A DNA stretch of 64,000 nucleotides, from IMG/VR virus record IMGVR_UViG_3300045988_154997, positions 1 to 64,000 of that record. One strand, written 5' to 3'. Source of the stretch: a virus (taxonomy: Duplodnaviria > Heunggongvirae > Uroviricota > Caudoviricetes). The notes below the pieces were generated by a model. The model saw only the letters and a list, made by a program, of their open reading frames with translations, was not told where the DNA came from and did no database searches. Positions within the stretch are counted from its first letter, which is position 1. Every line of letters starts with the position of its first letter. A program made the translations under genes and the position numbers. Positions 40,795-55,879 of the stretch are shown here, one piece after another.

Positions 40795-40986
40795 AAACCT
40801 AAACTGTAAAGGCAACAAAAGGTGAAATAATAACTCATTAAAAGCACATTGTGTGAAATTTTAATCTGATAATTCATATATCGGAAGGGATTTTAGATAT
40901 TTTTAATATTTATAACTGTCCTTTTCATAGATATAGTTGATTTGAGCGCACACTTTCATGTAAAAAGCCGCCTAAGCGGCTCTTAA

Positions 40987-41521: not shown

Positions 41522-42343
41522 ATGACTATCCTTGAAAATCCTGATGCGAATGTTGAATCTGTTTATAGTCTTCATCCAACCACGTTGTTTCATTTTACAA
41601 AAAACGAAGATGCTTTCTATAGCATATTGGCTGAGAAATATTTTAAACCATTTCTTGCTCGCGAGGAAATAAGAGGAGTCGGGGGACGCAGGAGGTTTGC
41701 AGTACCAATGGTATCGTTTTGTGACATAAAACTATCACAAATCAGAGATCATAGCGGAAAATATGGAGAATTCGGTCTTGGGCTAACTAAGTCTTGGGCG
41801 GAAAAGAAAGGTCTACACCCAGTTCTATATATGAATAAGAGTAGTGAAATATTTTCTAAATACAATGCCAGAATTCGACTTATTAAAAATAAGTTGGTGC
41901 CGCTTTGGAAGGCTAGAGGAAATTTAGATACCAAAAACAGAATAGAGTTTGAGAAATTGAAAGCAGAATATTCTGATCTATATAATTTACTGCGTTATAT
42001 GAAAAATTACAGAGGCAAGCTAGAGCGAAAAGATAATAAAACAATAGAGAATTATATATATGCAGACGAGAAAGAGTGGCGTTATGTGCCAGCTCCTTTT
42101 ATTGGTGATTTATGGCCTAGTCTGAGTTTGGAGCGTGTTATCACTTCTGATGACAAAGCAAAAATTAGCTCAAAATTTTCAAAGTTTGGCATTGATTTTG
42201 AGTTCAATGATATAAAATATATACTTATACCTAAAGAACAACATATCCAAAAGCTAATTAACTTTCTCTCAGGTTTAGATGGATTTGAATCTTCAATTAT
42301 TAGCAAAATTCTGACCATGGATAAAGTAAAGCAAGATTTTTAA
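41522..42343 (+). CDS. DUF2971-like protein (candidate defence cassette, gene 1)
   Basis: RBS AAGGTG-N4-ATG at 41522; motifs LFHFTKNEDAFYSIL and HSGKYGEFGLGL resemble the LYKY.../...HKG.C.GF signatures seen in the clearer DUF2971 protein at 55116..55835; AT-rich. Confidence 0.45.
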   Translation: MTILENPDANVESVYSLHPTTLFHFTKNEDAFYSILAEKYFKPFLAREEIRGVGGRRRFAVPMVSFCDIKLSQIRDHSGKYGEFGLGLTKSWAEKKGLHPVLYMNKSSEIFSKYNARIRLIKNKLVPLWKARGNLDTKNRIEFEKLKAEYSDLYNLLRYMKNYRGKLERKDNKTIENYIYADEKEWRYVPAPFIGDLWPSLSLERVITSDDKAKISSKFSKFGIDFEFNDIKYILIPKEQHIQKLINFLSGLDGFESSIISKILTMDKVKQDF

Positions 42344-42369
42344 TTTTTGGTTTAACGGGAGCCTAATTA

Positions 42370-43581
42370 GTGTCAATATTTTTAAGCGAAAAGGAAATGC
42401 AAAATTGGATAATTGACAAATTATCTGATCAAGATGGATTATATAATTCAATCATCAATATTGATAAATTAAATGAATTTAATCCGAAAAGACCCGAAGA
42501 GAAAAAAATTAAGGAGAGTTATCAGTTTTGTTTAAAGAACATAACATTGTTACATTTAATGACAGATGATGAGAATATCTCAGCAACAAAATCTGAGATA
42601 TTAAGACCTGATGTCGTTGCTTATTCAACAGAGAATGAATCCTTAGTTCTTATTGAGTTAAAAAATTTTTCAACACCAACAAGGGAAGCTGGAACTGAGC
42701 TAGTGGCATATGCTGCGGAACTAAAAAGTTACTTGTCATACTTGTCTGATGGAGATATTACCAATGTACTTATATCACCTGACTGGCCACCTTTGGTTAG
42801 ACACTTTATTTTTAATATGATCGTGTGGCAGAAGAAAAACTTTCTATGTTTAGAACCTTGCTATGATTTACAAGGTAACGTATCACTTACTCCTTTAGAT
42901 ATTAATAAATTAGTTATTGCGGAAGAAGCACTCAAGTTCTCATTTCGTCATCTTGGCGGGTTTCATATATGTTTGTATGATGATGAAATGTATAATCAAC
43001 CGACTTCCACTTCTCGTTTACATTCGAAATTGAATGTTATTAAAGCCAGCATGGCAAAAATGTCCTCAGACGGTGAAAAGACTAATAGCCATGGGTTTGC
43101 TATTTTATGTAGAAATTTGAACGAGAGAACTTTAGCACCATATACGATTACTCTAGTTAATGTTTCTGCGTTTTCTTCCATAGAGCGATACTTTCATTCG
43201 CCACAAATATCCAATGCTTCTCAACTCCCTAGAATAGGACAAAAAATTTATGACATTTACACTCATTACCAACCATCAGGTTTTGGGGCATCAATGTCGA
43301 AAATTTACAATTCTGGGAGGGCATATTTAGAAAAAATTAATTGCAAGCCGCGGATCGAGGTTATAGACACCTGGGATGTATTGCAAGTACATACACATGC
43401 GCCTTATATGGAAATGGTTCATATTGAAACGTGGGGAGTTTTTAAAGAAAAATTGATTGAAGGTCTAAATGAATGTTATGAGGATGAATATTACACACCT
43501 GATTTTAACGATGTAGATTTTTGCATGGTGTGTATTGAATCCTTAATTGACCAGAATTATGAATTTATAAAACTTTTTTGA
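42370..43581 (+). CDS. PD-(D/E)xK nuclease-like protein (candidate defence cassette, gene 2)
   Basis: GTG start with GGGAG RBS; N-proximal RPDVVAYSTENESLVLIELK fits D...E-x-K restriction-endonuclease-like motif; rest unrecognised. Confidence 0.45.
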   Translation: MSIFLSEKEMQNWIIDKLSDQDGLYNSIINIDKLNEFNPKRPEEKKIKESYQFCLKNITLLHLMTDDENISATKSEILRPDVVAYSTENESLVLIELKNFSTPTREAGTELVAYAAELKSYLSYLSDGDITNVLISPDWPPLVRHFIFNMIVWQKKNFLCLEPCYDLQGNVSLTPLDINKLVIAEEALKFSFRHLGGFHICLYDDEMYNQPTSTSRLHSKLNVIKASMAKMSSDGEKTNSHGFAILCRNLNERTLAPYTITLVNVSAFSSIERYFHSPQISNASQLPRIGQKIYDIYTHYQPSGFGASMSKIYNSGRAYLEKINCKPRIEVIDTWDVLQVHTHAPYMEMVHIETWGVFKEKLIEGLNECYEDEYYTPDFNDVDFCMVCIESLIDQNYEFIKLF

Positions 43582-43584
43582 AGA

Positions 43585-43608
43585 AAAGGGGCCGAAGCCC
43601 CTTTGAAT
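43585..43608. terminator. bidirectional hairpin terminator (GGGGC-cgaa-GCCCC) closing both the plus-strand cassette and the minus-strand tRNA operon
   Basis: Read directly; T-run TTTTCTTCAAAAAA on minus strand, weaker T-run on plus. Confidence 0.6.
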
Positions 43609-43679
43609 ATTGCGCTGAAAAAAAGTGTTGCTAGGATGTTAGCAAGCTATGGTTAAGAACGTCTGCCGTAATTGTCAAT

Positions 43680-43757
43680 CACAGCGTTGAGCGGTCTGGT
43701 TTATGTTAGCGGAGTCTTAATCGAGTTGATTAAAAGGCCAAACCGCTCAACGCTGTG
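43680..43757. repeat. perfect 16-bp inverted repeat (CACAGCGTTGAGCGGT / ACCGCTCAACGCTGTG) with 46-nt loop, abutting the tRNA-Ser 3' end
   Basis: Read directly. Confidence 0.6.
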
Positions 43758-43759
43758 TC

Positions 43760-43846
43760 TGGCGGAGAGTAATGGAATCGAACCATCATCGTTTGCACAA
43801 TGGGACGATTTTCAAGACCGCTTGAGCACCATGCTCCCTACTCTCC
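43760..43846 (-). tRNA. tRNA-Ser (anticodon UGA), type II (long variable arm)
   Basis: Acceptor GGAGAGT/ACTCTCC, discriminator G, encoded CCA; anticodon loop CTTGAAA; T-arm GATGG-TTCGATT-CCATT; D-arm non-canonical (A8), so needs tRNAscan confirmation. Confidence 0.6.
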
Positions 43847-44070
43847 GGCCGTTGTGGTGGCCGGTACTGAATCTCCGGCATACGGTGCAGCCAATTAGGA
43901 CTACGGACGATCACCGCTCGCGAAAGGGAAGATTTGCGGCCGCATTTCCCTAACATCCAAGAAAGCTATCGCATCAGTCTGCGAATCCACCACAACGGTA
44001 AGATCACTACCTTTCGACCAGTCATTGTGCACATGAACGACGATTAACCGTAATGATCTTATCGTTGTAT

Positions 44071-44146
44071 TGGTGCCGGTTAACGGACTCGAACCGCTGA
44101 CATCCTGCTTACAAGGCAGGCGCTCTACCAACTGAGCTAAACCGGC
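44071..44146 (-). tRNA. tRNA-Thr (anticodon UGU)
   Basis: GCCGGTT-TA-GCTC-AGTTGGTA-GAGC-G-CCTGC-CTTGTAA-GCAGG-ATGTC-AGCGG-TTCGAGT-CCGTT-AACCGGC-A-CCA; canonical cloverleaf, 76 nt. Confidence 0.85.
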
Positions 44147-44150
44147 AATT

Positions 44151-44237
44151 TGGTGGGGAGTGATGGAGTCGAACCACCCGAGTCGCAATGACAGTAGATT
44201 TACAGTCTGTCCCGCTACCTCTACGGACTAACTCCCC
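44151..44237 (-). tRNA. tRNA-Tyr (anticodon GUA), type II
   Basis: Acceptor GGGGAGT/ACTCCCC, discriminator A, CCA; D-stem GTCC/GGAC; anticodon loop CTGTAAA; T-arm GGTGG-TTCGACT-CCATC; overall similar to E. coli tRNA-Tyr. Confidence 0.75.
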
Positions 44238-44242
44238 TAAAT

Positions 44243-44317
44243 TGGCGATGGTGGGTGGATTCGAACCACCGACCAGTTGGTTAACAGCCAACTGCTCTAC
44301 CGCTGAGCTACACCATC
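44243..44317 (-). tRNA. tRNA-Asn (anticodon GUU)
   Basis: GATGGTG-TA-GCTC-AGCGGTA-GAGC-A-GTTGG-CTGTTAA-CCAAC-TGGTC-GGTGG-TTCGAAT-CCACC-CACCATC-G-CCA; canonical, 75 nt. Confidence 0.85.
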
Positions 44318-44581
44318 AATTCAGCACTGCCAGTATTTATTACTCAACAGTGCCAATCGCGGCGGTGTTAGTTTCTGCCAGGAAACACACCGCTACTGGC
44401 ACTTTCCGTTAGTGCCAGACGTTTTCGACTTCGCTCAATAGAAGGCAAAATCTTTAAGTAGATGATGTTTCTGAGGACAGCACCTACTTTGTAATTTATA
44501 CAATGTGATGTATGGAATCATTTGTTGTGAAAACAGGCACTAATGGCAACAGTGGTTAAACCTATACAACAATCCTGTCTT

Positions 44582-44705
44582 CACAACGTTGAGGCCACTA
44601 CTCCGATTGAATGTTTGCCCAACATGTTACATATCAACGCTCGCCGGTATCTCTGTGAATAGAACCTTAGAATTGATAAAAATGTAATGGCCTCAACGTT
44701 GTGTG
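44582..44705. repeat. perfect 16-bp inverted repeat (CACAACGTTGAGGCCA) with about 92-nt loop, upstream of the tRNA cluster; arms similar to the repeat at 43680..43757
   Basis: Read directly. Confidence 0.6.
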
Positions 44706-44781
44706 CTGGCTAACCATACCAGCCGGGCTACGTCGCCGCTTTTTAACCCAGTATAAACGACATAATTGAACAAAATGACGT

Positions 44782-44857
44782 AACAGGATGGGCGGTCATT
44801 GGCTAAGAATCCGGGAGTCGTATATGAGTTGAAAATATACTGACCGCCCATTCTGTT
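44782..44857. repeat. 17-bp inverted repeat (AACAGGATGGGCGGTCA / TGACCGCCCATTCTGTT, 1 mismatch) with about 42-nt loop
   Basis: Read directly; followed by a 9-bp hairpin GGAGGGAAC-tctcat-GTTCCCTCC at 44866..44889. Confidence 0.55.
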
Positions 44858-45094
44858 ACTTCATCGGAGGGAACTCTCATGTTCCCTCCTGCGTTCTGCA
44901 ATCACACTCGCTCAGTGTGTCCCATTTCGGTAACGAGGCTGGAAACTGACCTCGCTGGTGTTTGGCTTATTAGGCTACTGCCAGATAGACTTCTTCGTTT
45001 GCACTTGTATTTAAGTTCAAACAGTCGCGTCTCAACGAAAACAAAGTCATCTTATACATAAAAGATAGGTAAGTAAATACTTATTATTGTATTT

Positions 45095-45385
45095 TTATTC
45101 GGTTGTGACTTTTTTGATCAAGGCCACTCTACGACTAGGTGTTCTTGTGATGGTGGCAGTGAATTGTTTCGCTTGGATAGTAATGGTTTCGTTCTCCTTA
45201 AGTTGCCCGTAGCGAGTTTCCACCAGGGTGCCAAGACGCCACAGACCATCATCGATACGTTTATGACTAGCAAATTTAATCAGCAACAGTTTTACGACTA
45301 ACTGACCTACGTAAAAGGCGAATGCGACTCCGGCCGCTAAGAAATAGGTGACCAACCACCATTCCCAAGAAGTTAACTTGCTCAT
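45095..45385 (-). CDS. small membrane protein
   Basis: 96-aa ORF, N-terminal TM WWLVTYFLAAGVAFAFYVGQLVV. Confidence 0.45.
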   Translation of the reverse strand: MSKLTSWEWWLVTYFLAAGVAFAFYVGQLVVKLLLIKFASHKRIDDGLWRLGTLVETRYGQLKENETITIQAKQFTATITRTPSRRVALIKKVTTE

Positions 45386-45530
45386 TTTTTCACCTTTGTT
45401 TCATGAACTACTCGATACACGCGCTTTCCGATGCACAGTGTTTTGGTTTTAAGTTCCTGCTTAATCAAATCATGACAGATGCCGAAGCCGATAAGGAAGC
45501 CAGCCATAAAAGCCAATGAGATGTATGGAA

Positions 45531-45746
45531 TCATTTAAAGGCTCCTGATTCTACTAATTGCTGTAGCAATAATTTCCCTTTATCAGTTAACTGGTAGTTG
45601 GCCGAGCGCCACGTTTCAGAAACGTTTGCAACCAACCCTAAACGCTCTAACTTAGCTCGCGTTTTAGGCTTCCAGTACTCAGGGAACTCCGGCCACTTAC
45701 TTATTTCATGAAGCGTTTCTTTCTCCCGTTTACTTAATACGATCAT
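45531..45746 (-). CDS. hypothetical small protein
   Basis: 71-aa ORF overlapping ligase stop (ATGA-type coupling). Confidence 0.4.
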   Translation of the reverse strand: MIVLSKREKETLHEISKWPEFPEYWKPKTRAKLERLGLVANVSETWRSANYQLTDKGKLLLQQLVESGAFK

Positions 45747-47065
45747 TCTTTATCTCCGATTCGATCTTCGGTATCGCGTAAGCAACGCGGCCATTTCAGT
45801 CGTGGGTGGCGTAAGCTGCCATCAGGTGTTTTCTCGTGACAATGAACCTCGACAATACGACCACGGTACTTCTCTTTGTTGTTCCAGATCTCGTCCAGAT
45901 ATTTATGCTTAATGCCGCTCGCACGAACGATGACGCCGTTTTCAAGACGAATAACAATTTTCCCAAGCGTGTTGGCAAAACCAGAGTCCGGGTCGCCCGG
46001 CTCAAAATCGATAATTTCACCATCTTCTGAATCTTCGTCTTTTAACTTCCACCAGCTGCGGGTACGTTTAAACTCGTAAACAGAGTTCGGATCTTTGCCC
46101 ATCTCCCCTTCTTCGTTATCGTCCAGGCGTTTCATGAAGCGTTCGATGAAGTCTTCGTGGCTATGGATGATGTAGAACGGATGCAGGTGAATGTCTTGTG
46201 CGTAGCCTTCACTGCGATCGTTTTTGAACAACGCCACGAGCATAGCCAGGCGCTCTTTCAGCTTCATACCTGTCTTTGCATACTCTTTGGATTTAGCCTG
46301 TGCTCGCCATTCCGGTAGGAAGAAGTCGAAAACATGATAAATAGCGCCAATTGCCTGCACGTTCTTTTTGCGCAATGCAGATACGGACTGGTTAAATGAA
46401 CCGGCTGTGCCTTCACCATCGAAGAAGATGTGTTTGTGGCCTGAAAGTTTGCCTAATTCGAGCATGGCTGGCTTTAGGTGATCGAGAGACGTGATTGGAT
46501 TACCAGTACGAGAAAGGAAGTTAACCTCTTCTTCGTCAACAATAACCTCGCAAATTACTCGCAAACCATCGAGCTTAAGGCTGCCAATCATCGGCCATTT
46601 TGCTTTAGGGTTTGGCTTGAAGGGGTATTTGTCGCCTTTTTCTTTATACGGTGACGCCAGCTGCACCTCGAATTTCGGAATGGGATTTTCAAAAACCTTG
46701 TTGCATAGGCTAATCCCAACGCCAGCTTTCGGATCTTTTAAGAGGAAACGACGGAAGACGTCCTGCCCATCGGCGCACATTGACGCCACGATAGACTCAA
46801 CAGCAGCTATTGCTGCGTTCCCCGTCAGCTCGCGAGAGGCCAGCTTATTCAGTACATCAATGGCTTTTTCGTCACTTGGGACGGACTCACTAAGCGGCTC
46901 TGCCACTTTGTATTTCTTTACCCCAAAACGGATGAAAGGGTTGAGCATCAATGAAACCATGCTTTGTTCAAAGTCATCCATGTTGGCCAATGCCTCTTTT
47001 TTTGCATTGGTTCCCATAGCTTTCATTTCGTCCAGCTTATGCTTAAGTGCGATCAACTTTTTCAT
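45743..47065 (-). CDS. ATP-dependent DNA ligase
   Basis: Adenylation motif I SLKLDGLRV (K-x-D-G-x-R) and downstream nucleotidyltransferase/OB pattern. Confidence 0.8.
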   Translation of the reverse strand: MKKLIALKHKLDEMKAMGTNAKKEALANMDDFEQSMVSLMLNPFIRFGVKKYKVAEPLSESVPSDEKAIDVLNKLASRELTGNAAIAAVESIVASMCADGQDVFRRFLLKDPKAGVGISLCNKVFENPIPKFEVQLASPYKEKGDKYPFKPNPKAKWPMIGSLKLDGLRVICEVIVDEEEVNFLSRTGNPITSLDHLKPAMLELGKLSGHKHIFFDGEGTAGSFNQSVSALRKKNVQAIGAIYHVFDFFLPEWRAQAKSKEYAKTGMKLKERLAMLVALFKNDRSEGYAQDIHLHPFYIIHSHEDFIERFMKRLDDNEEGEMGKDPNSVYEFKRTRSWWKLKDEDSEDGEIIDFEPGDPDSGFANTLGKIVIRLENGVIVRASGIKHKYLDEIWNNKEKYRGRIVEVHCHEKTPDGSLRHPRLKWPRCLRDTEDRIGDKE

Positions 47066-47532
47066 TGTTGTTTTGCCTCCATATGTTGATCGATTTGCTC
47101 ATGTGTTTCTTTTGTTGTTTCTTCAATCAACGCCGCATACACGTCAGTGATCGCTGTTTGTGATGTGGCGCTCTTCTTAACCATGCTATTAATCGTTACA
47201 CTGTCACGTTTTCGTTTTATAGTTCTGGCTTGTTTATTCCGTTCTTCAACCTCCTTAATGAGTGCGGTCATATCTTCGTAATACAGAGATTCTCCTTTAC
47301 GAATCTCTTCAACCATCATTTTTAACGCCTTGCATTTGCCTGCTTTAATAGCGGTTGCGCACGACTGGAAAGACGTTCGAGGAAGACGGTTTTCTTTGAA
47401 GGCAAGAATGGTGTGCTGGCAAACGGAGTAGCTGCAATATGCCGACTCACCGTTTATCTTTACTTCCTCACAACGAAGTGAATAACCGTTATTTCCTGAA
47501 ATAGAAGGGATTTTTGACAAATCAGCTTTCAC
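47062..47532 (-). CDS. hypothetical protein
   Basis: 156-aa ORF, GTG start. Confidence 0.45.
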   Translation of the reverse strand: MKADLSKIPSISGNNGYSLRCEEVKINGESAYCSYSVCQHTILAFKENRLPRTSFQSCATAIKAGKCKALKMMVEEIRKGESLYYEDMTALIKEVEERNKQARTIKRKRDSVTINSMVKKSATSQTAITDVYAALIEETTKETHEQIDQHMEAKQQ

Positions 47533-47599
47533 AATTACCGCCAGAAATAATCTTGTGCTTACCTATCATTATTTGCGTAAAAAACGACACACAGAGAGC

Positions 47600-48382
47600 T
47601 TACCAACTTCCCCAGCTAATCATCTTGCGCTGATCGCTTTCTAAGCGATAGGGGGCAAGAAGCTCTGTGACATGATTGGTGGCGTATGATTTGGCCTCTT
47701 GCTCTATCATCGGTAATTCGTTAGCAATCCTGACCATCTTCCCAGCAAATTCCGCCATTACGCCATCACACGCCTTACCCGCATCAACAATGATATGCAC
47801 AAGATCCAACTGGCTTTTGCACATGTCCCAAAGAGTCGAATATTCGCTCTCCCTGATTAGATTTACAGCATCATTAGCCCCTTTATTAATCAAAACCTCC
47901 AACAGATTTGTCGGGGTGACGAAATCGGCTTTCAGAGACAATGTTGGTTCAGCTTTTACCGACAGCAAGTAATCTTCAAAGTTTTGCTTGTCTTCCAGCA
48001 AAGCTAAACTACGCATAGCTCGAATTGATTCTCGAATAACGGCTTCAATATGTTCGTCACCTGGAGGACAGATAATGGTATCTGTATAGATGACTCTGCC
48101 ATCAAACCACGTCCCAACCTGCACTTTTAGAGTTCGTAAGTTTTCTTTGCGTACAAAAACAACTAATGCAGAACGTCGTGCATGTGCAGGTTCGCCCCAT
48201 ACGCACAACTTAACCTTCAGATAAGGTAGCCCCGGTAGCGGGATCTCGACCAAACGAGTGGCGATATGATCCATTGCCGTATTGACGGCTTTTCCAATGA
48301 TGTCTAGCCGATTGCTCTCGCTGATTTCTAAACCAGTTTTATCAATGATGTTGCAGGCTAATCTCTTAATTTCTTCTTTCAT
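47600..48382 (-). CDS. hypothetical protein
   Basis: 260-aa ORF. Confidence 0.5.
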   Translation of the reverse strand: MKEEIKRLACNIIDKTGLEISESNRLDIIGKAVNTAMDHIATRLVEIPLPGLPYLKVKLCVWGEPAHARRSALVVFVRKENLRTLKVQVGTWFDGRVIYTDTIICPPGDEHIEAVIRESIRAMRSLALLEDKQNFEDYLLSVKAEPTLSLKADFVTPTNLLEVLINKGANDAVNLIRESEYSTLWDMCKSQLDLVHIIVDAGKACDGVMAEFAGKMVRIANELPMIEQEAKSYATNHVTELLAPYRLESDQRKMISWGSW

Positions 48383-48507
48383 ACCAACTCCTAGCTAACG
48401 GATGAAAGTATTCTTACAAAAACTTAAGTATGTATATACTTATCATTTTAGGTGCAATAGTTCTTTATACTAAGATGCCGGGCGTATCCGCAGCCCAGCA
48501 TTCACCT

Positions 48508-48921
48508 TTAATGAGCTACAGCCTCACTGTTGCACATCTTTCTGTAGACCTGCTTATAACGCTGTAAATCATGAGGATCATTAGGTGCCAACGACTTCGA
48601 TAGGATTTTGTATACCACCCCTTTTGAAAACATGCCCTTTGGCTTCATTTCGAGTTCAACAACATATGAGTGATAGCCCACGTATGCACCAAAGCCATTT
48701 TTGGCGTTTAATTCACCACACACAAAGCCTGTCACACTCCCATCATCATGATCAGTCCTGACAAACTTATCTTTCCTAAACATCACCGACGTGGGATCTT
48801 TCATATCATCCGCAATTGCCTGTTGGCCCAGAGTAATAGCCTTCTCGTCTGTAGGCTTACACCCAACTAATGCAAACAAAGACAATAAAGCACCTGTTAA
48901 AATCAACTTCTTTTTGCTCAT
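48508..48921 (-). CDS. lipoprotein, unknown function
   Basis: Signal peptide + lipobox LVGC (MSKKKLILTGALLSLFALVGCKP). Confidence 0.5.
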   Translation of the reverse strand: MSKKKLILTGALLSLFALVGCKPTDEKAITLGQQAIADDMKDPTSVMFRKDKFVRTDHDDGSVTGFVCGELNAKNGFGAYVGYHSYVVELEMKPKGMFSKGVVYKILSKSLAPNDPHDLQRYKQVYRKMCNSEAVAH

Positions 48922-49154
48922 TTTGACTTCCCTTTATTTATATTTATCGTAGGTATTAGTTAACCAAAACACGAGCCGTGTCACAATAATTCCATAGCTC
49001 ATTATTTCCATCGGTGATTAATATCACATCAACTTTACAGTTCATAAATTAAATTATCAAAGCTGACAGATTAACTAAATTTAAGTACCCTTTTCGCACA
49101 CTTGACGCTTGCCGCGTCTAAACTGTTCATCCTATATCAACAGAACAAAAAAAC

Positions 49155-50300
49155 ATGAAATACATAAAATCTTCATCGTTGCTGGCATTAACTTTGCTTT
49201 TTAACTCTGGATTCGTTAACGCAGACAATAAACAAACGCTGATAGAAGCCGCTACCGCAGGGGATACCGCAGCACAAAGTGAGTTAGGTACAAATTATTT
49301 TGATGGTGTCAATGGTTTTGATAAGGATGTAGTTGAGGCCAAGAAGTGGATTGATCTAGCTGCAGAAAAGGGAGATAAAGTAGCATATTATGCACTTGGA
49401 GTTATGTACACATTTGGCGAGGGTGTAGATAAAGACCTAAATAAAGCTGTTGAGTACTACAAACTTGCGGGGGATGCTCGTGAAGGTAGAGCCTACAACA
49501 ATCTTGGTGCTATTTATCAAAAGGGGATGCTTGGTAAAGTAGATCATGCACTCGCCATTAAATACTTCAAACTAGCCTCTGATGCCGGGTATGTTAAAGC
49601 AACTTCAGTTCTTGGGGCGTATTACCAATATGGTAAAGGCGTTAAAAAGAATTATAAAAAGGCTTTTACTTATTACAAAAAGGCGGCAGACCAAGGCAGT
49701 TCAGAAGCTATGATAGGATTAGGAATACTATACGATGATGGGTTAGGCGTTAAACGCAATGATGCAGAAGCAGTTAAGTGGTATAAAAAGGCAGCGGAAC
49801 TTGGAAACGCCGACGCCATAACCAATCTTGGCATTATGTATGAGAATGGGGAAGGTGTAAAAAAGGACTATAAAAAAGCAGCCGACCTTTATCAGACTGC
49901 TTGCGATAAAGGAGAAAAAAGAGGCTGCGATTACATTGCAGAACTGAAAGAAAGCGGCAAATATCGAGCGCCGGCTTCCAAAGCCAAAACAAAATCCGCC
50001 ACCCAGCGACTTATTGCTAAATCCATTGATAAGGGCGTTAACGCTACATTTACCTGGCAGGGTGATGATGCTACCTTCACCGCTAATGATGGCAAAGTTG
50101 ACTGCACCTTCCTGAAGGATTTTTCAGAGAAAGGAGGCAATCTGGCTACCTCGTTTGTTTGCACCGACAACGTTCAAATCATCCTGAAGCAATTCAGAGA
50201 TACCAAGAATGCCTACCTCGCGGTAATGACTGACAACTTCAACACAGAAGTTAAATCATTTTCGGTCAATGTGTACGTGACTAATACTGGTTCAAACTAA
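49155..50300 (+). CDS. secreted Sel1-repeat (TPR-like) protein
   Basis: Signal peptide; at least 6 tandem Sel1-type repeats (G.GV.KD..KA..WY.KAAE.G); non-repeat C-terminal domain. Confidence 0.7.
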   Translation: MKYIKSSSLLALTLLFNSGFVNADNKQTLIEAATAGDTAAQSELGTNYFDGVNGFDKDVVEAKKWIDLAAEKGDKVAYYALGVMYTFGEGVDKDLNKAVEYYKLAGDAREGRAYNNLGAIYQKGMLGKVDHALAIKYFKLASDAGYVKATSVLGAYYQYGKGVKKNYKKAFTYYKKAADQGSSEAMIGLGILYDDGLGVKRNDAEAVKWYKKAAELGNADAITNLGIMYENGEGVKKDYKKAADLYQTACDKGEKRGCDYIAELKESGKYRAPASKAKTKSATQRLIAKSIDKGVNATFTWQGDDATFTANDGKVDCTFLKDFSEKGGNLATSFVCTDNVQIILKQFRDTKNAYLAVMTDNFNTEVKSFSVNVYVTNTGSN

Positions 50301-51473
50301 TGCTGCTATGCCTTTTACCTTGCTTAAAAGTTCAAGCTGTCGTGAGTAAGGTTTTGCGCAATAGTAGGCTTTGATAATCTGCCCCGGGGTCGCATCGCCG
50401 GGGTCGAGTCCTTCCTCGCCCAAACATGCAATTTTCACATTAAGACCGATACTGGTCAGTCGCCTGGCTGCGGCCATAGTGTTTCGTATAGCTTGCTTTT
50501 CACTATCCCACATCATGATCACATTACGTAATCCACGCGCCTTGAGCGTCAGGAACGCGCCCAACTGATCTTCTGCATCCTGAGTGGTGTTACCAGATAG
50601 ATGCATCCCGAACGTTCCTATTGGTTCCACGTAATCGCGTAATGTTTCTTCGTCAAAAATAGCTCGTTTGACCCCCATAACATCGAACGCCCCCTCACAG
50701 ACAACTACAGTCTGTTTGCCGACTGCATTGTGGCCGTTGTAGAGAAACTTACCTGAAGCTGGAAGCTGCATAGGAAAGAGGTAGCGGCGTTCTGCTGTAC
50801 CGGTAATGTCTCGTCCTTGAAATGTCTTCATTACCCCATCCAGATCGTAAACCGGTATCAGTATTCGCATATCGAAAATCTGTCCTTTAACCTGATCTGT
50901 ATACGGATCTACATAAGCGTGCTTGCCTTCGACGCAGTATCGTAGGTCAAAATACTTTGCCATTTCAGGCGATATATTTCGTTCAACCAGATAGTCTGGA
51001 AGATGGCCATCTATAGGAAGATCGTAATGACGAGGGAGTGCAACTGGTCCCTCTAACTCGACTGTGCTTGCAAGCACTATCTCTTCTTTCTTTGGTGCCC
51101 ACCCCTGGGAAAGAAGAGCGTTCTGCACATATTCCTCGAACTGTCGTCGTGATTTACCGCTGTAGTGCTTGAGGAAGACCAGCTTATTGAACTGAATCTC
51201 TTCGGGATGATCACCAGCGAAGCATTTACCGACGCCACTGGTCAGATTGAAATATACCTTCCAGTTGGAGCTGCCGCATACCGGACACTCCTTGATATTC
51301 ACTTCACGACCGCGAGTACTCACGCCTCCACGTCGATAAACGATACCTTCAGTATCCAACCATTGTTCAAAATCTAATTCGGTAATTAGCTCTTTCAGCT
51401 CGCTCACGATAATTCCACTTTTAACAGGCAATATTGTGACCAACCTAAATGTTGATATAACATAAAGGCTCAT
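50292..51473 (-). CDS. DNA primase (zinc-ribbon + TOPRIM, T7 gp4/DnaG-like)
   Basis: Zinc ribbon CPVCGSS...GKCFAGDH and TOPRIM VVVCEGAFDVMG; start set at ATG 51473 (shared initiation sequence) rather than 51545. Confidence 0.75.
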   Translation of the reverse strand: MSLYVISTFRLVTILPVKSGIIVSELKELITELDFEQWLDTEGIVYRRGGVSTRGREVNIKECPVCGSSNWKVYFNLTSGVGKCFAGDHPEEIQFNKLVFLKHYSGKSRRQFEEYVQNALLSQGWAPKKEEIVLASTVELEGPVALPRHYDLPIDGHLPDYLVERNISPEMAKYFDLRYCVEGKHAYVDPYTDQVKGQIFDMRILIPVYDLDGVMKTFQGRDITGTAERRYLFPMQLPASGKFLYNGHNAVGKQTVVVCEGAFDVMGVKRAIFDEETLRDYVEPIGTFGMHLSGNTTQDAEDQLGAFLTLKARGLRNVIMMWDSEKQAIRNTMAAARRLTSIGLNVKIACLGEEGLDPGDATPGQIIKAYYCAKPYSRQLELLSKVKGIAALV

Positions 51474-51554
51474 GTGTTTTTCTTTTGTGGTTTGGCAAAA
51501 GAAAAGTTGTTTCACCAATGAATCAAGCGTGGAGGTGTTCTCCACGCTTATTTT

Positions 51555-52895
51555 TTAGGTAACGTCTAAGATTCGCTCAATGAAGCGCATTTGTTCGAGG
51601 TTTTGTTTAACGCGAATGCTGATCCCTCCCTGCTGGTTACGCGAACCAGCAAAGTAGAGACGAGCCTCTCCTTTCGCTTCTTCTTCTTCGGTTTTGTTGA
51701 TCGTTATTACCAGGTCAGCAATACGTACTTTTTCGATGTTGTCGGCAGCGTGCATCATTGTGGCAACTTCTGACGCGCCACCTTCACGGTTTGTTTGCGA
51801 CGCCGTGATACCAGCAACGTTATGCTTGTCATAAAGAGCACGTAAATCGGTGTAGATACTACGAATGTTGGCGCGATCATCACGAAGGTCATAACTGGCA
51901 CGCATCAAATCTGCGTAGTCGACAACAACCATGTCAGGCACCATGCCGTTGGCTTTCATGCTGTTAAGCATACGGTCCAGATCTGCCGGTGACATACTTC
52001 CTGACGGACGCTCAACCACCCACAAACTACCAATCCCCTTCGTGGCTCCCAACTCTGCCAACTTACGATGAACCTCATCGCGCCGTTCCACCAGCTTGGA
52101 CATTTCTGTCTCCGACAATCTTGCATCAAAACGGTCGGATAAAATGGTGGTGTGAACCTCCAGCGAGAGATACAGAACATTGTAGCCAGCAAGCGTTGCG
52201 TTTATGGAAAACTCACCCATTGCGGTCGATTTGCCGGATTTAGCGAACCCCATGAAGAGCACCATTTCACGCTTCGCCCAGCCTTTTTGGTACAGCAACC
52301 TATCGAGCAGAGGGAGTCCAGTTGTAATGCTGTTTGGCACATACTCCTCTGAAGCCTCATATTCACGCGCTTTCAATCGCTCACTTGCGGAGGTGTAGTA
52401 GTCATAGATTCCGGTCGCTTCGTTCGAGCCTATCTGCTGAACCTTGGCCATGATTGCCATCGCCCCCTGAAAGTCGCCCTTCTCTTTCAGTTCAGCAGCT
52501 TTAATCAGAGCATCATCAAACGCTACACTTTTTGCGAATGTGGATACCTGGTCAACCATGTACGAGGTATCAGACAATTTTTCTGCAAGGATGCGCTTAA
52601 ACGCAGCAACAACATCCGGGAAGAGTTCCTCACGGATGGTCTTATCGCGTTTCGCGCGCTTAAGCATATCCAGAATCGCAGATGAAGAAGGCGCGCTCTT
52701 GTACATACGGTAATAGCCCGAAACCATATTAACCAATATGGCATTGGCCGCATTGGCAAATTGGCTAGGCACAACCAGATCTCCCGCACGAGTAAGAAAC
52801 TCGTGATCACGACAAAAATATGCCGTCAGTCTGTTCTGGAAATCTTCATCAAACTCTTCGGACAGCCCGCGTCCTGTATGGCAAAGTTCGGTCAT
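51555..52895 (-). CDS. DnaB-like replicative helicase
   Basis: Walker A GFAKSGKST, Walker B-like VVVDYADLM in RecA-fold C-terminal domain; upstream palindrome at 52911..52931. Confidence 0.8.
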   Translation of the reverse strand: MTELCHTGRGLSEEFDEDFQNRLTAYFCRDHEFLTRAGDLVVPSQFANAANAILVNMVSGYYRMYKSAPSSSAILDMLKRAKRDKTIREELFPDVVAAFKRILAEKLSDTSYMVDQVSTFAKSVAFDDALIKAAELKEKGDFQGAMAIMAKVQQIGSNEATGIYDYYTSASERLKAREYEASEEYVPNSITTGLPLLDRLLYQKGWAKREMVLFMGFAKSGKSTAMGEFSINATLAGYNVLYLSLEVHTTILSDRFDARLSETEMSKLVERRDEVHRKLAELGATKGIGSLWVVERPSGSMSPADLDRMLNSMKANGMVPDMVVVDYADLMRASYDLRDDRANIRSIYTDLRALYDKHNVAGITASQTNREGGASEVATMMHAADNIEKVRIADLVITINKTEEEEAKGEARLYFAGSRNQQGGISIRVKQNLEQMRFIERILDVT

Positions 52896-52938
52896 GTGCT
52901 TTCCTTTGTTTTTTAAACAAATTGTTTTCTAGTATTAG

Positions 52939-53679
52939 TTAATTAGATAGGGGATCAATAAACCGCCGTGCTTCTTCCAGTTCTTCTGGAAAGTGGGCGG
53001 AAATAAGGCGCTCTGGAACGATTTCCATTAGCCAGATAGCAGAGAAAATTGCGCGTATGCGCTTGCTGCGGGGGATGATGCGCAAACGCTCCAGAATCCA
53101 CTCAAAATAGCTTTCCTGAATCGGGTTGAACTGCATGTCTCCCATATGCTTAAAGCTAACCAGAGAGTCATCCAGACGGGTTGTTGCGCGTCTGGATAAT
53201 TTCTCTTCGAATATCTCAATCAGTTCTGGCTGCCATAAATGCTGTGGGCGCGGCAACTTGTCCCACAGACGCCGTGCAGCTGCGGAAAGAACCGTGGAGA
53301 TAAAGTAGTCGTATGAACAGCAATAGCGATCAGCAAACTGGCGTGCTTTCCATAGCGACGTTTTATTGGCAGTCGACAACTCCTGATAAGGCAGGCGTTT
53401 TAACCCGGTGGTGAACGGAGCTGTTTCAAAGTGTTCGCGACCGTGCGTCAGCATGATATTTGAGTACTGACGTTTGTATGCCTCCGTAAAAAGACAGGTG
53501 GCCATGAGAGGATGCATGTCGCGGTAATCAAACCACTTCGTCTCGAAGAGTTCAGCCTCGTCATTGCAGCGCGACAAACCAATGTTTTCAGCGACCCACT
53601 TGTCCATAACAGCGGTATTCCACTCTGTCATGAAGTCGTACTGGTCGTTGTCAATGGTATCAAAAAAGATTTGGCTCAT
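52939..53679 (-). CDS. hypothetical protein
   Basis: ORF-track start is GTG 53688; ATG at 53679 has AGGTGA RBS and the 21-bp palindromic element directly upstream (53691..53711). Confidence 0.5.
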   Translation of the reverse strand: MSQIFFDTIDNDQYDFMTEWNTAVMDKWVAENIGLSRCNDEAELFETKWFDYRDMHPLMATCLFTEAYKRQYSNIMLTHGREHFETAPFTTGLKRLPYQELSTANKTSLWKARQFADRYCCSYDYFISTVLSAAARRLWDKLPRPQHLWQPELIEIFEEKLSRRATTRLDDSLVSFKHMGDMQFNPIQESYFEWILERLRIIPRSKRIRAIFSAIWLMEIVPERLISAHFPEELEEARRFIDPLSN

Positions 53680-53797
53680 GTGGCTCACCTGATAGGTAGT
53701 TACTTACTTATTGCAATGAGCGGATGATAGCGACTGGTGGCAGTTTTTGGAAGTGGAAACGGAAGGGAATGTGTCTGGGAAGTTGGCATAGAAAAAG

Positions 53798-53852
53798 ACC
53801 TGCTTCCGTATAAATAATAATAAGTAACTTAGTATTTATATACAGAAGCAGG
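53798..53852 (-). terminator. long-loop hairpin element, copy 2 (arms ACCTGCTTC[C/T]GTATA) followed by CTTTTTCT on minus strand
   Basis: Near-identical arms to 4993..5051; immediately 3' of the 53877..55073 gene. Confidence 0.45.
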
Positions 53853-53876
53853 TTCCAAATTCAACCAGCAGGATGC

Positions 53877-55073
53877 TTAAACATCTTTTAGAAAGCCTGG
53901 AAACCAATGTTTCATGATATACCTAAAATGTGCTCTAGTTGGTTCAAAAACCTGTCTAGATACCAGCGCTCCATCAGGATGATTCTGAACAGACTGTTCT
54001 TTTTCCATATCGTAAAAATTATGAGTTATCTCTGGGGGGAAGAAAATATTTCTGTCCAGTGGCACTGTCGCAAAAGGATTGTAGTAAATATGAAGGCCGT
54101 CAAAGTGCGTCTCTTCATGAGCAGTGGAATGGCAAACTACAATATCCGCACCAGTGACTTCGTTATTTAAAAAATGCCGATATGTAGTGATGAAATGATC
54201 AGGACCTATCCTTTGTGTGTGCTTTCCCTCGTTTTTCATCCCTTCATTGGCGATGAAATCATTCACATCAATGGCTCGATATCGTGTTGACCTTACATAT
54301 CTACCGATACCGCTTTGAACCACGGCTTTTCCAAAAGTGCCGGTGGTGGAGAAAATAACCGCACTTATTTCTTTATATGAGTCGTTAGTAAATATACCTA
54401 ATGGAATTTCAACGTCTTCATTCTTTTTGATTGAGGTAACTTTAGTTTGGCTGCCAGTCACCAAATTTCTGGTGGTAGGTTCCTCAATGCCAAACAACAC
54501 TCGATTGATGATTGTGTTATTTTGAGACAATGATAAATCGGAGTCAAAGGGTGCAAGCGCCAGAACAAACGGCTTATTAACTACATGAGACATCGTAGAG
54601 TACGGGAATTTTTTGCCATTAACTCCTGTAAAAAGATCATGTTTGTCTTTGATTTTTCCGATTAATTTTAGCGTTGATTGATGTTTGAATTTTGATTCGC
54701 TAAAAAGAGCACCTGCAGGTGGATTATGTGGCCGATCTGATATCACAGCTTCGACGTTAAACTGGTAGCCTGACGGTGTAGTAACACAGAAATCGGGACT
54801 GTCTTTTGTGTAGTCGACAGAATAATCGAGACGAATAAACATTTCGTTCAGATACAATTCCCATAAGGCGGAATTGAAGGTTGTCTGAAACTCTTTAACG
54901 AATTTAGTCTGCTCACCGCTACGCTCCAGTAACCCACGCCCCCACGACTGTATCACTTCTCTTACTGGAGCATATGTATTATCTTGATAAATCTGTTTAA
55001 AAGATTCGTGCAGCTTGTTTTTTGCTATTTTGGTTGAGAACAAATCCATTATTAGCCTCACTAACCAGTTCAA
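53877..55073 (-). CDS. hypothetical protein, possible degenerate PD-(D/E)xK fold (partner of DUF2971 protein; candidate defence cassette)
   Basis: 398-aa AT-rich ORF directly downstream of the DUF2971 gene; SPDFCVTTPSGYQFNVEAVIS loosely fits a D...E-x-x nuclease core (weak). Confidence 0.45.
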   Translation of the reverse strand: MNWLVRLIMDLFSTKIAKNKLHESFKQIYQDNTYAPVREVIQSWGRGLLERSGEQTKFVKEFQTTFNSALWELYLNEMFIRLDYSVDYTKDSPDFCVTTPSGYQFNVEAVISDRPHNPPAGALFSESKFKHQSTLKLIGKIKDKHDLFTGVNGKKFPYSTMSHVVNKPFVLALAPFDSDLSLSQNNTIINRVLFGIEEPTTRNLVTGSQTKVTSIKKNEDVEIPLGIFTNDSYKEISAVIFSTTGTFGKAVVQSGIGRYVRSTRYRAIDVNDFIANEGMKNEGKHTQRIGPDHFITTYRHFLNNEVTGADIVVCHSTAHEETHFDGLHIYYNPFATVPLDRNIFFPPEITHNFYDMEKEQSVQNHPDGALVSRQVFEPTRAHFRYIMKHWFPGFLKDV

Positions 55074-55115
55074 TAAGAAAAGCGCCCAACATAATCATTT
55101 GAGGAAAGTCTGGAG

Positions 55116-55835
55116 CTACTTCAGCTTTTCTTTGACAAGAAGATAACCATCATCAGGTGTACTCATTTTGTAAACCTCGATGCTCGTGTCTAGCTGTGTC
55201 CGGGCATATTCTTCTACTTCAGGAGAAACGTTATACCCAAGAATGATCTCTCTAATATATTTCTTATCAAATGCCTGAGCGCCTATTTTTTTAGTAATAA
55301 CCCTTTGTTCTTCCTCATATTTCCAGCATTCGTGCTTGTAGAAAAAGAGCTTATCAAAAAGTACCTTAAACTCATCTGTAACTTCATCGAACACGGGAAC
55401 AGAAGGTATATATTTCACATTATCAAAGCTGTGATACCCCTCAATAGAGGTAACAAAATCATCATCAAAGCCTATGCAGAAACCTTTATGCGACACTGAG
55501 TAATGTGACCACATCAAGATGTTATCTTCGTTTGGTGACAAGCACACCACACCAAAAGCCCCTAATGATTCTTTCCGCAAATCCACAGCCAACGATTTTG
55601 CAGCTTCAGGAGCTACAGCATCCCAGTCTTCAAAGGAAAAATCCTTACATCCATTGTCTTCAAAGTGTTTCCGGCGCTCCACTTCTGTACCTCCCATCGT
55701 TATCGAAACTTTGAACTCTGATGGGTCGTTGAATGAAGAAGGTGCGCTAGCAGAGATAGTGCCGTCCTCTACAAACCGTTTGAGGTTACGTAACACTTTT
55801 TGCGAATCTTCACTTCCAATATATTTGTAGAGCAT
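55116..55835 (-). CDS. DUF2971 family protein
   Basis: N-terminal MLYKYIGSEDSQKVLRNL...SSFNDPSEF and central LMWSHYSVSHKGFCIGF match the DUF2971 signatures as I recall them; start may instead be the upstream TTG at 55874. Confidence 0.55.
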   Translation of the reverse strand: MLYKYIGSEDSQKVLRNLKRFVEDGTISASAPSSFNDPSEFKVSITMGGTEVERRKHFEDNGCKDFSFEDWDAVAPEAAKSLAVDLRKESLGAFGVVCLSPNEDNILMWSHYSVSHKGFCIGFDDDFVTSIEGYHSFDNVKYIPSVPVFDEVTDEFKVLFDKLFFYKHECWKYEEEQRVITKKIGAQAFDKKYIREIILGYNVSPEVEEYARTQLDTSIEVYKMSTPDDGYLLVKEKLK

Positions 55836-55879
55836 TAGGGAACCTATAGAAAGAGGTGCCAAGCAGCACCTCAATAAAA

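What the first reader, a model, noticed from the sequence alone, without database searches (positions are those of the whole stretch)
41522..55835. The two accessory cassettes appear to be paralogous versions of the same architecture (DUF2971-like gene followed by a roughly 400-aa nuclease-like gene)
In both loci the first gene begins with an L-[YF]-[KH]-[YF]...E-D...IL segment and contains an H-x-G-x-[YF]-[GC]-x-G-[FL] motif. In both loci the second gene is about 400 aa and has a P-D...(10-13 aa)...hhh-E-x-[KV] stretch about 80-100 residues from the N-terminus. Sequence identity is low, so these would be independent acquisitions of a conserved module rather than a recent duplication. Two diverged copies of one two-gene module on a single mobile element is what one sees for variable defence or counter-defence loci.
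Basis: inference. Interest (0 to 1): 0.75.

Follow-up and report, generated by a model that had tools for sequence, protein, structure and literature searches.

The report
Two stacked ART-plus-nuclease defence loci
Two variable slots of an E. coli SSU5-type phage-plasmid each hold an ADP-ribosyltransferase-fold abortive-infection gene followed by a ~400-aa nuclease gene; the likeness is real at fold level, but they are not demonstrably duplicated modules, and three of the four genes belong to families already known or proposed to act in phage defence.

Summary
All four genes exist, on an E. coli SSU5-like phage-plasmid.

- **1A** (41522-42343) is AbiGi family, not DUF2971. Its model has a DarT-like ADP-ribosyltransferase (ART) fold.
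- **1B** (55116-55835) is DUF2971 (PADLOC candidate PDC-S31), published as ART-like.
- **2A** (42370-43581) belongs to an uncatalogued ~400-aa family with an N-terminal PD-(D/E)xK nuclease domain.
- **2B** (53877-55049) is the known single-gene system PD-T7-5.

Profile-profile comparison is not significant for either pair. For 1A/1B the probability is 0.7-4.9% and only the ExE motif aligns; for 2A/2B it is 0.5%. So "same architecture" holds only at superfamily level.

All four genes occur alone elsewhere. The two cassettes assort independently among sister plasmids: 7 carry both, 11 only A, 4 only B.

ART-like and nuclease genes are nevertheless neighbours repeatedly. All four combinations exist, and every hit is an immediately adjacent gene. 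An AbiGi-like + PD-T7-5 pair moves as a 2.2-kb cassette, and 1B+2B entered as one 1958-bp block.

Best reading: autonomous defence genes stacked in two hotspots. Functional ART-nuclease coupling remains possible. Interest is moderate.

The parts
41522..42343 (+). Gene 1A: AbiGi-family protein (273 aa), ADP-ribosyltransferase fold, DarT-like. Conserved H24, Y81, E183-x-E185.
42370..43581 (+). Gene 2A: 403-aa protein of an uncatalogued family. N-terminal PD-(D/E)xK nuclease domain (D81, E96, K98) plus a C-terminal alpha/beta region of ~200 aa with no clear match.
55116..55835 (-). Gene 1B: DUF2971 protein (239 aa), PADLOC candidate PDC-S31. It is a divergent allele (about 40-55% aa identity) of a backbone gene of SSU5-type phage-plasmids. 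Conserved Y112, E174-x-E176.
   Evidence: Pfam PF11185 1.2e-6. PADLOC PDC-S31 2.6e-38. Family invariants. 311 plasmids carry a homologue, 300 of them at under 60% identity. 40% identical to the allele of the sister plasmid pPK8276.
53877..55049 (-). PD...E-x-V motif (D86, E100).
   Evidence: PADLOC PD-T7-5 1.5e-139 and PD-T7-1 1.8e-42. Family invariants. Listed as a PD-(D/E)xK nuclease in PMC10952713. PD-T7-5 reported in SSU5 clade J phage-plasmids.
53854..55811 (.). Swapped block of slot 2: 1958 bp holding 2B and all but the first 24 nt of 1B. In the sister plasmid pPK8276 a 755-bp DUF2971-only allele lies here.
   Evidence: blastn of the window against L257: flanks 96-97% identical, with homology ending at 53853 and resuming at 55812. 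The same breakpoints, more loosely, appear against pHCM2, Klebsiella and Cronobacter plasmids.
39728..43583 (.). Variable region of slot 1, between the integrase and the tRNA cluster. It holds orf329, a divergent grxA, a small ORF, 1A and 2A.
   Evidence: blastn against pECAZ155_2 (L259/L260): 98% homology ends at 39727 and resumes at 43584, 3 nt after the 2A stop. Against Klebsiella p23-2 (L028), which has AbiGi alone, homology resumes at 43573.
53798..53853 (.). 56-bp imperfect palindrome at the backbone edge of slot 2, 24 nt past the 2B stop codon.
   Evidence: the repeat finder, arms 53798-53812 / 53839-53853. Self-inverted blast hits.
39695..39727 (.). 33-bp near-perfect palindrome at the backbone edge of slot 1.
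   Evidence: the repeat finder. Homology with pECAZ155_2 ends at 39727.
55880..56907 (-). Backbone partition genes upstream of 1B: ParA/MipZ ATPase (56239-56907) and a 119-aa ORF (55880-56239).
   Evidence: Pfam AAA_31/MipZ/ParA hits. Conserved order parA - 118 aa - DUF2971 in L110-L112.
38493..39596 (-). Site-specific integrase flanking slot 1.
   Evidence: RefSeq annotation of the identical plasmid.
43760..44317 (-). tRNA cluster (Ser, Thr, Tyr, Asn) flanking slot 1 on the other side.
   Evidence: ARAGORN.

Best explanation
The window comes from an E. coli SSU5-type phage-plasmid. Two separate variable slots on it each stack two anti-phage genes that can act on their own.

**Slot 1** lies between the integrase and the tRNA cluster.
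- It carries an AbiGi-family protein, a DarT-like ADP-ribosyltransferase fold with an intact H-Y-ExE signature.
- 26 nt downstream lies a previously uncatalogued ~400-aa PD-(D/E)xK nuclease, 2A.

**Slot 2** lies between parA/orf119 and the DnaB helicase module.
- It carries a divergent allele of the backbone DUF2971 gene. This is also an ART-like protein, of the same kind as the validated lactococcal system Aristaios.
- 66 nt downstream lies the known single-gene nuclease system PD-T7-5.

**Inferred mechanism (not shown).**
- After a phage trigger, the ART-like proteins ADP-ribosylate DNA or another essential target and abort the infection.
- The nucleases cut phage or cell DNA.
- The genes sit in tandem because new cargo is added just 3' of a resident, expressed defence gene.

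The two cassettes are therefore analogous: the same two folds in the same order. They are not demonstrably paralogous copies of one module.
For: **Element and gene identities**
- The window is 100% identical to E. coli plasmid NZ_CP073997 and 96% identical to SSU5-like phages.
- Gene identities.
- 1A has an ART/DarT fold. 2A has a PD-(D/E)xK fold with invariant D81/E96/K98.

**Published function of relatives**
- DUF2971 is ART-like and related to AbiGi and DarT.
- The DUF2971 protein Aristaios defends on its own.
- PD-T7-5 is catalogued as a single-gene system; the source paper describes five single-protein DNase-only systems.

**Each gene occurs alone**
- AbiGi alone in a Serratia prophage, on IncF plasmids and on a Klebsiella SSU5-like plasmid.
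- 2A family without AbiGi in 24 of 24 genome loci and 12 of 12 viral loci. It sits beside RM, AAA_15, HEPN, PIN, CHAT and Cas genes, and at the integrase end of prophages.
- DUF2971 alone or with other cargo in pHCM2, Klebsiella, Cronobacter and E. coli pPK8276.
- PD-T7-5 alone in C. sakazakii pCS1 and in most metagenome loci.

**Independent assortment**
- Cassette A is in 18 plasmids and cassette B in 11. Seven carry both.

**No detectable homology between the pairs**
-.
Against: **The adjacency is not random**
- In every surveyed locus where an AbiGi/DUF2971 hit and a 2A/PD-T7-5-family hit co-occur, they are immediate neighbours. This covers about 7 independent lineages.
- All four ART x nuclease combinations exist.

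**Pairs move together**
- An AbiGi-like + PD-T7-5 pair travels as a 2.2-kb unit between unrelated flanks.
- 1B + 2B entered as one 1958-bp block with matching GC.
- 1A and 2A also share an unusually low GC of 0.33-0.34.

**A fusion points to a link**
- An HNH-AbiGi fusion protein exists (P0036).

These points fit functional coupling as well as, or better than, passive stacking. No activity was tested here.
Confidence: 0.55

Rival explanations
1. These are true two-gene systems. An ART-like protein (AbiGi or DUF2971) and the downstream PD-(D/E)xK nuclease work together, and the parts can be exchanged. For example, the ART might mark DNA by ADP-ribosylation for the nuclease to cut. Alternatively, one protein senses infection and the other executes.
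For: - All four combinations are found as immediate neighbours. AbiGi->2A (window). DUF2971->2A (L015). DUF2971->PD-T7-5 (window; L073, where the nuclease is only 49% and the DUF2971 only 25% identical). AbiGi-like->PD-T7-5 (L036, L085, L231, L233).
- The AbiGi-like + PD-T7-5 pair is a 2.2-kb cassette with unrelated flanks in 4 contigs.
- 1B + 2B is one swapped 1958-bp block.
- AbiGi lies next to PD-T7-1 (L120) and next to a PD-T7-5-family gene beside an AbiGi-AbiGii pair (L133, L135).
- An HNH-AbiGi fusion exists.
- The intergenic gaps are short, 26 and 66 nt.
Against: - Most members of each family lack the partner. That is 55 of 60 PD-T7-5 metagenome loci with upstream room, 35 of 36 surveyed 2A-family loci elsewhere, and 79 of 80 DUF2971 viral loci.
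- Orientation varies: tandem, convergent and divergent.
- PD-T7-5 and the DUF2971 protein Aristaios each protect as single genes.
- PD-T7-5 occupies the same SSU5 slot without DUF2971 in pCS1.
Confidence: 0.3
2. These are toxin-antitoxin-like pairs, as the NCBI name 'antitoxin AbiGi' implies. The first gene would neutralise a toxic nuclease encoded by the second gene until phage infection.
For: - The NCBI/Pfam label for AbiGi is 'antitoxin'.
- The gene order and sizes resemble lactococcal AbiGi (293 aa) and AbiGii (397 aa).
Against: - 2A and 2B show no similarity to lactococcal AbiGII (hhalign Prob 0.07% and 1.2%).
- AbiGi has an enzyme fold with conserved catalytic-type residues.
- Both nuclease families are overwhelmingly encoded without any AbiGi/DUF2971 neighbour, so they cannot depend on such an antitoxin.
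- AbiGi and DUF2971 are commonly solitary.
Confidence: 0.07
3. These are counter-defence or competition genes. The phage-plasmid would use the ART-like proteins and nucleases against host defences or against rival mobile elements, rather than to protect the host from phages.
For: - The genes sit on a temperate phage-plasmid.
- The DUF2971 gene lies next to the partition and replication genes and is near-universal but fast-evolving in SSU5-type elements. This fits an arms-race gene of the element itself.
- AbiGi homologues lie in the leading region of IncF plasmids near psiB.
Against: - Relatives with tested function act as anti-phage defence: PD-T7-5, Aristaios and AbiG.
- Neighbourhoods of the 2A and PD-T7-5 families are typical defence islands.
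Confidence: 0.08

Closest known systems
AbiG (AbiGi + AbiGii) of Lactococcus
   Same: 1A is a member of the AbiGi family by Pfam and PADLOC. It is followed on the same strand by a ~400-aa gene, like abiGi-abiGii (293 + 397 aa in L029).
   Different: - The second gene is not AbiGii: hhalign Prob 0.07%, with no Pfam or PADLOC AbiGii hit. It is a PD-(D/E)xK nuclease of another family.
- 1A is only ~29% identical to lactococcal AbiGI.
- Its closest relatives are solitary genes.
DarT of DarTG (ssDNA thymidine ADP-ribosyltransferase toxin)
   Different: - No macrodomain antitoxin (DarG) gene is adjacent.
- Sequence identity is only 10-16%.
- There are large helical inserts.
- Activity and substrate are untested.
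Aristaios / PADLOC PDC-S31 (single-gene DUF2971 systems)
   Same: 1B has the DUF2971 domain and matches PDC-S31 models (E 2.6e-38). Aristaios, a DUF2971 protein, protects Lactococcus on its own and has a predicted ART fold.
   Different: - 1B was not compared directly with Aristaios.
- Here the gene is a backbone gene of a phage-plasmid next to parA.
- In this lineage it is followed by PD-T7-5.
PD-T7-5 (and PD-T7-1), Vassallo et al. 2022
   Same: 2B matches the PD-T7-5 model over its whole length (E 1.5e-139). It is a single-protein putative DNase system, already reported on SSU5 clade J phage-plasmids.
   Different: - Here, and in several other lineages, it lies directly downstream of an ART-like gene (DUF2971 or AbiGi-like). 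The papers read here and the PADLOC models treat it as a single gene and do not mention such a partner.
- Its motif is D...E-x-V rather than D...E-x-K.
Stand-alone PD-(D/E)xK defence nucleases (NucS-like, Shedu SduA, HamA, Can2 nuclease domains)
   Different: - No sequence-level membership in any catalogued family (PADLOC, NCBIfam, Pfam, PDB).
- The ~200-aa C-terminal region has no clear match.
- Relatives of ~700-750 aa carry a further unknown C-terminal half.

Membership tests
AbiG two-gene system | AbiGi-family first gene | tested here: met
   1A: Pfam PF10899 E 4e-25 and PADLOC AbiGi 5.5e-47. NCBIfam equivalog score 52, far below the cutoff of 300, so it is a family member, not the lactococcal orthologue.
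AbiG two-gene system | AbiGii-family second gene adjacent | tested here: not met
   2A has no Pfam or PADLOC AbiGii hit. hhalign of the 2A family against lactococcal AbiGII gives Prob 0.07%.
ADP-ribosyltransferase superfamily (DarT-like) | ART fold | tested here: met
ADP-ribosyltransferase superfamily (DarT-like) | Conserved catalytic-type motifs (motif I H/R, motif II Y or S-x-S, motif III E or ExE) | tested here: met
   1A family: H24 nearly invariant; Y81, E183 and E185 invariant. 1B family: Y112, E174 invariant and E176 nearly invariant, with the motif I His replaced by K/Y. This matches the published description.
ADP-ribosyltransferase superfamily (DarT-like) | NAD+-dependent ADP-ribosylation activity | not testable with these tools
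   Needs biochemistry.
DarTG toxin-antitoxin | Adjacent macrodomain antitoxin (DarG) | tested here: not met
   No macro-domain hit in 2A, 2B or the scanned neighbours.
DUF2971 / PDC-S31 / Aristaios | DUF2971 domain | tested here: met
   1B: PF11185 1.2e-6 and PDC-S31 2.6e-38. 1A does not hit DUF2971, and none of 65 members of the DUF2971 alignment hit AbiGi or DarT in Pfam.
DUF2971 / PDC-S31 / Aristaios | Anti-phage protection as a single gene | not testable with these tools
   Shown for Aristaios only (PMC11381338).
PD-T7-5 | Full-length match to the PD-T7-5 model | tested here: met
   2B: E 1.5e-139, profile positions 1-342 of 346. 2A has no hit.
PD-T7-5 | Single-gene system | tested here: inconclusive
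   It is solitary in most loci and in pCS1. It is directly preceded by DUF2971 or an AbiGi-like gene here and in 3 further lineages.
PD-(D/E)xK nuclease superfamily | Restriction-endonuclease-like fold with a D...(D/E)xK triad | tested here: met
   hhalign Prob 0.7% (P 0.07), rising to 4.9% (P 0.008) with broader alignments. Only the ExE segment aligns. Fold-level and published evidence support a superfamily relation.
   hhalign Prob 0.5% full length and 0.3-2.4% for split domains. The PD motifs align in register, but without statistical support.
   1B + 2B form one 1958-bp swapped block. 2A looks like an add-on 3' of a resident AbiGi. All four genes also occur alone.

The most novel reading that the evidence does not exclude
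AbiGi/DUF2971-type ADP-ribosyltransferase-like proteins and ~400-aa PD-(D/E)xK nucleases (PD-T7-5, PD-T7-1 and the uncatalogued 2A family) would form a modular, mix-and-match two-component defence class. The ART-like protein might mark nucleic acid or relay the infection signal, and the nuclease would execute. The many solitary copies would then be either degenerate or self-sufficient forms. On this reading the window carries two different realisations of this class on one phage-plasmid.
Probability: 0.22. Interest if true: 0.75.

Novelty: new variant of a known kind. Interest (0 to 1): 0.45.

Why it matters
- **Annotation.** 1A is an ART-fold enzyme candidate, not an 'antitoxin'. 2B is PD-T7-5. 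The 'hypothetical' 2A is a PD-(D/E)xK nuclease from an uncatalogued family with a strong defence-island signature, so it is a testable new single-gene defence candidate.
- **Hotspot structure.** Two cargo hotspots of SSU5-type phage-plasmids are defined to the base pair, with palindromes at their edges. The near-core DUF2971 gene next to parA turns out to be a fast-diversifying locus.
- **Recurrent pairing.** AbiGi/DUF2971 genes lie repeatedly next to PD-T7-5-type nucleases, including a mobile 2.2-kb pair. None of the papers read here, nor the PADLOC models, describe this. If the pairing is functional, it would link DNA ADP-ribosylation to nuclease-based immunity.

Tried and rejected
- **2A as a divergent AbiGii:** rejected (hhalign Prob 0.07%). 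2B against AbiGII gave 1.2%.
- **Pfam cross-hits:** none of the 65 members of the DUF2971 alignment hit AbiGi or DarT, even at E up to 10.
- **PDB sequence searches:** profiles of all four families found nothing relevant. The 729-aa relative P0414 also found nothing.
- **afdb50 fold library:** not available. I therefore could not ask whether DUF2971 or PD-T7-5 models appear among the structural neighbours of 1A and 2A.
- **BFVD search with the 2A model:** only weak generic PD-(D/E)xK hits (TM 0.26 or less).
- **hhalign variants:** relaxed, global and split-domain runs added no significance.
- **Promoter/terminator scans:** counts were at or near shuffle expectation and not informative. The only feature of note is a hairpin just upstream of 1B.
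- **Structure cap:** only two predictions were allowed, and I used them on 2A and 1A. 1B and 2B were not modelled, so no direct structural superposition of the pairs was possible.
- **A conserved partner for the 2A family:** rejected. Its upstream genes are heterogeneous.

Full report
**Context**

Window 40000-57000 is 100% identical to E. coli plasmid NZ_CP073997. It is 96% identical, in pieces, to SSU5-like Escherichia phages, and about 81% identical to Salmonella phage SSU5. The element is an SSU5-type phage-plasmid.

**Gene identities**

- **1A** (41522-42343, +) is an AbiGi-family protein: Pfam PF10899 4e-25 and PADLOC AbiGi 5.5e-47. It is not DUF2971.
- **2A** (42370-43581, +) has no PADLOC or NCBIfam hit and only a weak HSDR_N_2 hit.
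- **1B** (55116-55835, -) is DUF2971 (PF11185) and matches the PADLOC candidate PDC-S31 (2.6e-38).
- **2B** (53877-55049, -) matches PD-T7-5 over its full length (1.5e-139) and PD-T7-1 in part.

**Test of the claimed homology**

BLASTP finds nothing for either pair. I built family alignments: A1 (AbiGi family, 61 sequences), A2 (DUF2971, 65), A3 (2A family, 42) and A4 (PD-T7-5 family, 53).

- **A1 vs A2.** hhalign gives Prob 0.7%. It aligns only 12 columns, the E-x-E-x-R motif. With alignments enlarged to 92 and 131 sequences it reaches Prob 4.9%, P 0.008, on the same segment. None of the 65 members of the DUF2971 alignment cross-hit AbiGi or DarT in Pfam.
- **A3 vs A4.** hhalign gives Prob 0.5%. 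Split into N- and C-terminal halves it gives 0.3-2.4%. The PD motifs fall in register but without support.

**Fold-level evidence**

- A published survey places DUF2971 in the ART superfamily, with significant similarity to AbiGi and DarT and a conserved Tyr and ExE. The DUF2971 protein Aristaios is a validated single-gene lactococcal defence with a predicted ART fold.
- My family invariants agree with this: H24/Y81/E183/E185 in 1A, and Y112/E174/E176 in 1B.
Its PD-(D/E)xK assignment rests on the invariant D86...E100 and on the literature.

'ART-like gene followed by a ~400-aa PD-(D/E)xK nuclease' is therefore true of both loci at superfamily level. 2A is not AbiGii.

**Are these two-gene modules? 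Evidence against**

- The 2A family has 287 relatives among 1.84 billion representatives. It has no AbiGi neighbour in 24 genome loci or 12 viral loci.
- Its upstream genes are heterogeneous: PIN_12, AAA_15, PrimPol-D5, CHAT, an Eco57I-type RM enzyme, HEPN, an S24 repressor and Cas7-Cas4. Its closest relatives (41-52% identity) follow the CI repressor and integrase at prophage ends.
- AbiGi relatives of 1A are solitary in several settings. These are a Serratia prophage (60% identity), IncF plasmids beside Avs4 (71%), a Klebsiella SSU5-like plasmid in the same slot (65%), and other elements.
- DUF2971 homologues are present in 311 plasmids, mostly SSU5-type and 300 of them below 60% identity. 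The gene always follows parA and a 118-aa ORF. The next position varies:
  - empty (Klebsiella);
  - a reverse-strand 351-aa gene (pHCM2, C. malonaticus);
  - PD-T7-5 (the window);
  - PD-T7-5 with no DUF2971 at all (C. sakazakii pCS1; viral contigs L232, L234, L235).

- Most PD-T7-5 homologues (55 of 60 metagenome loci with upstream room) have unrelated neighbours, such as Peptidase_U49, YaaC, DUF4365 and Ku.
- Among sister plasmids, cassette A occurs in 18 and cassette B in 11. Seven have both, 11 only A and 4 only B.

**Evidence for a link**

Wherever an ART-like hit and a nuclease-family hit occur in the same surveyed locus, they are immediate neighbours.

- DUF2971->2A family in Bacteroides cutis (L015).
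- DUF2971->PD-T7-5 in L073. There the nuclease is 49% and the DUF2971 25% identical to the window's, so this is an independent lineage.
- AbiGi-like->PD-T7-5 in L036, L085, L231 and L233.
- AbiGi convergent with PD-T7-1 in L120.
- A PD-T7-5-family gene divergent from an AbiGi-AbiGii pair in L133 and L135.

The AbiGi-like + PD-T7-5 pair shares 82-90% nucleotide identity over exactly about 2.2 kb, with unrelated flanks. It therefore moves as a cassette.

Against the closest backbone (pPK8276, flanks 96-97% identical), the window differs by a single block, 53854-55811. This block holds 2B plus all but the first 8 codons of 1B, and it replaces a DUF2971-only allele that is 40% identical.

In slot 1, homology to relatives resumes within 3 nt of the 2A stop. 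The Klebsiella relative has AbiGi alone between the same flanks, so 2A looks like an add-on 3' of a resident AbiGi.

GC content is 0.339 and 0.333 for 1A and 2A, and 0.406 and 0.396 for 1B and 2B. Backbone genes have 0.46-0.49. An HNH-AbiGi fusion exists.

From the DUF2971 side the association is rare. Only 1 of 80 viral loci has it, and that one is the window's own lineage.

**Interpretation**

The best-supported reading (about 0.55) is that two hotspots each stack self-sufficient defence genes of two recurrent fold classes. The parallel arises because cargo is added just downstream of a resident ART-like gene.

A genuine, exchangeable ART + nuclease partnership (about 0.3) is not excluded. 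It is the more interesting possibility.

A toxin-antitoxin reading and a counter-defence reading are less likely, for the reasons given under the rival explanations.

Mechanistic statements (ADP-ribosylation, DNA cleavage, abortive infection) are inferred from fold, conserved residues and tested relatives. Nothing was assayed here.

**Novelty**

Three of the four genes belong to known or candidate families. Three things appear to be new:
- the 2A family as a defence candidate;
- the base-pair definition of the two hotspots;
- the recurrent adjacency of AbiGi/DUF2971 genes to PD-T7-5-type nucleases.

Noticed in passing
L024 4001-5182 (Aggregatibacter actinomycetemcomitans) and L026 3929-5179 (Neisseria flavescens): A 2A-family nuclease gene sits inside a CRISPR-cas operon. 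It lies between cas7-cas4 and cas1-cas2. The downstream 337-aa gene matches solved Cas1 structures at E 7e-98.
   Followed up: partly
L085 2598-4856; also L036, L231, L233: An AbiGi-like gene (223-242 aa, ~27% identical to 1A) plus a PD-T7-5 homologue (76-77% identical to 2B) form a ~2.2-kb two-gene cassette. It is shared at 82-90% nucleotide identity between contigs whose flanks are unrelated.
   Followed up: partly
P0036 (411 aa): A fusion protein with an N-terminal HNH endonuclease domain and a C-terminal AbiGi domain. This is a 'Rosetta stone' hint that AbiGi-type proteins work with nucleases.
   Followed up: no
window 53798-53853 and 39695-39727: Palindromes of 56 bp and 33 bp lie exactly at the backbone edges of the two variable slots. 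They could be terminators, operators or recombination sites.
   Followed up: partly
P0414, P0415, P0417, P0432 and about 60 others: Proteins of ~700-750 aa carry a 2A-like region at residues ~50-360 plus an extra C-terminal ~370 aa. The three checked in all three libraries (P0414, P0417, P0432) have no Pfam family assignment beyond sub-threshold HSDR_N hits and no PADLOC match; P0414 also has no PDB sequence match.
   Followed up: partly
window 39805-40794 (+): A 329-aa ORF with GC 0.36 and no Pfam hit lies in the slot-1 variable region next to the integrase. It is another accessory gene of unknown function. The sister plasmid pECAZ155_2 carries a different, 296-aa unknown protein after its grxA in the same variable region.
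   Followed up: partly
L110 4326-5381 (pHCM2) and L112 4292-5347 (C. malonaticus): In these SSU5-type plasmids, the position held by PD-T7-5 in the window holds a reverse-strand 351-aa gene. The pHCM2 copy (L110), the one scanned, has no Pfam or PADLOC match.
   Followed up: partly
L027 (E. coli IncFIA plasmid pSJ_82) 3501-4322: An AbiGi homologue 71% identical to 1A sits alone in the leading region of conjugative IncF plasmids. It lies near psiB, ParB and DUF905, next to an Avs4 gene.
   Followed up: no
window 43760-44317 (-): A tRNA cluster (Ser-TGA, Thr-TGT, Tyr-GTA, Asn-GTT) borders slot 1. Part of it is ~93% identical to tRNA genes of phages P7 and D6.
   Followed up: no
window 49155-50300 (+): A Sel1-repeat protein (381 aa, GC 0.42) is encoded on the opposite strand within the otherwise minus-strand replication module (ligase, primase, DnaB).
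   Followed up: no
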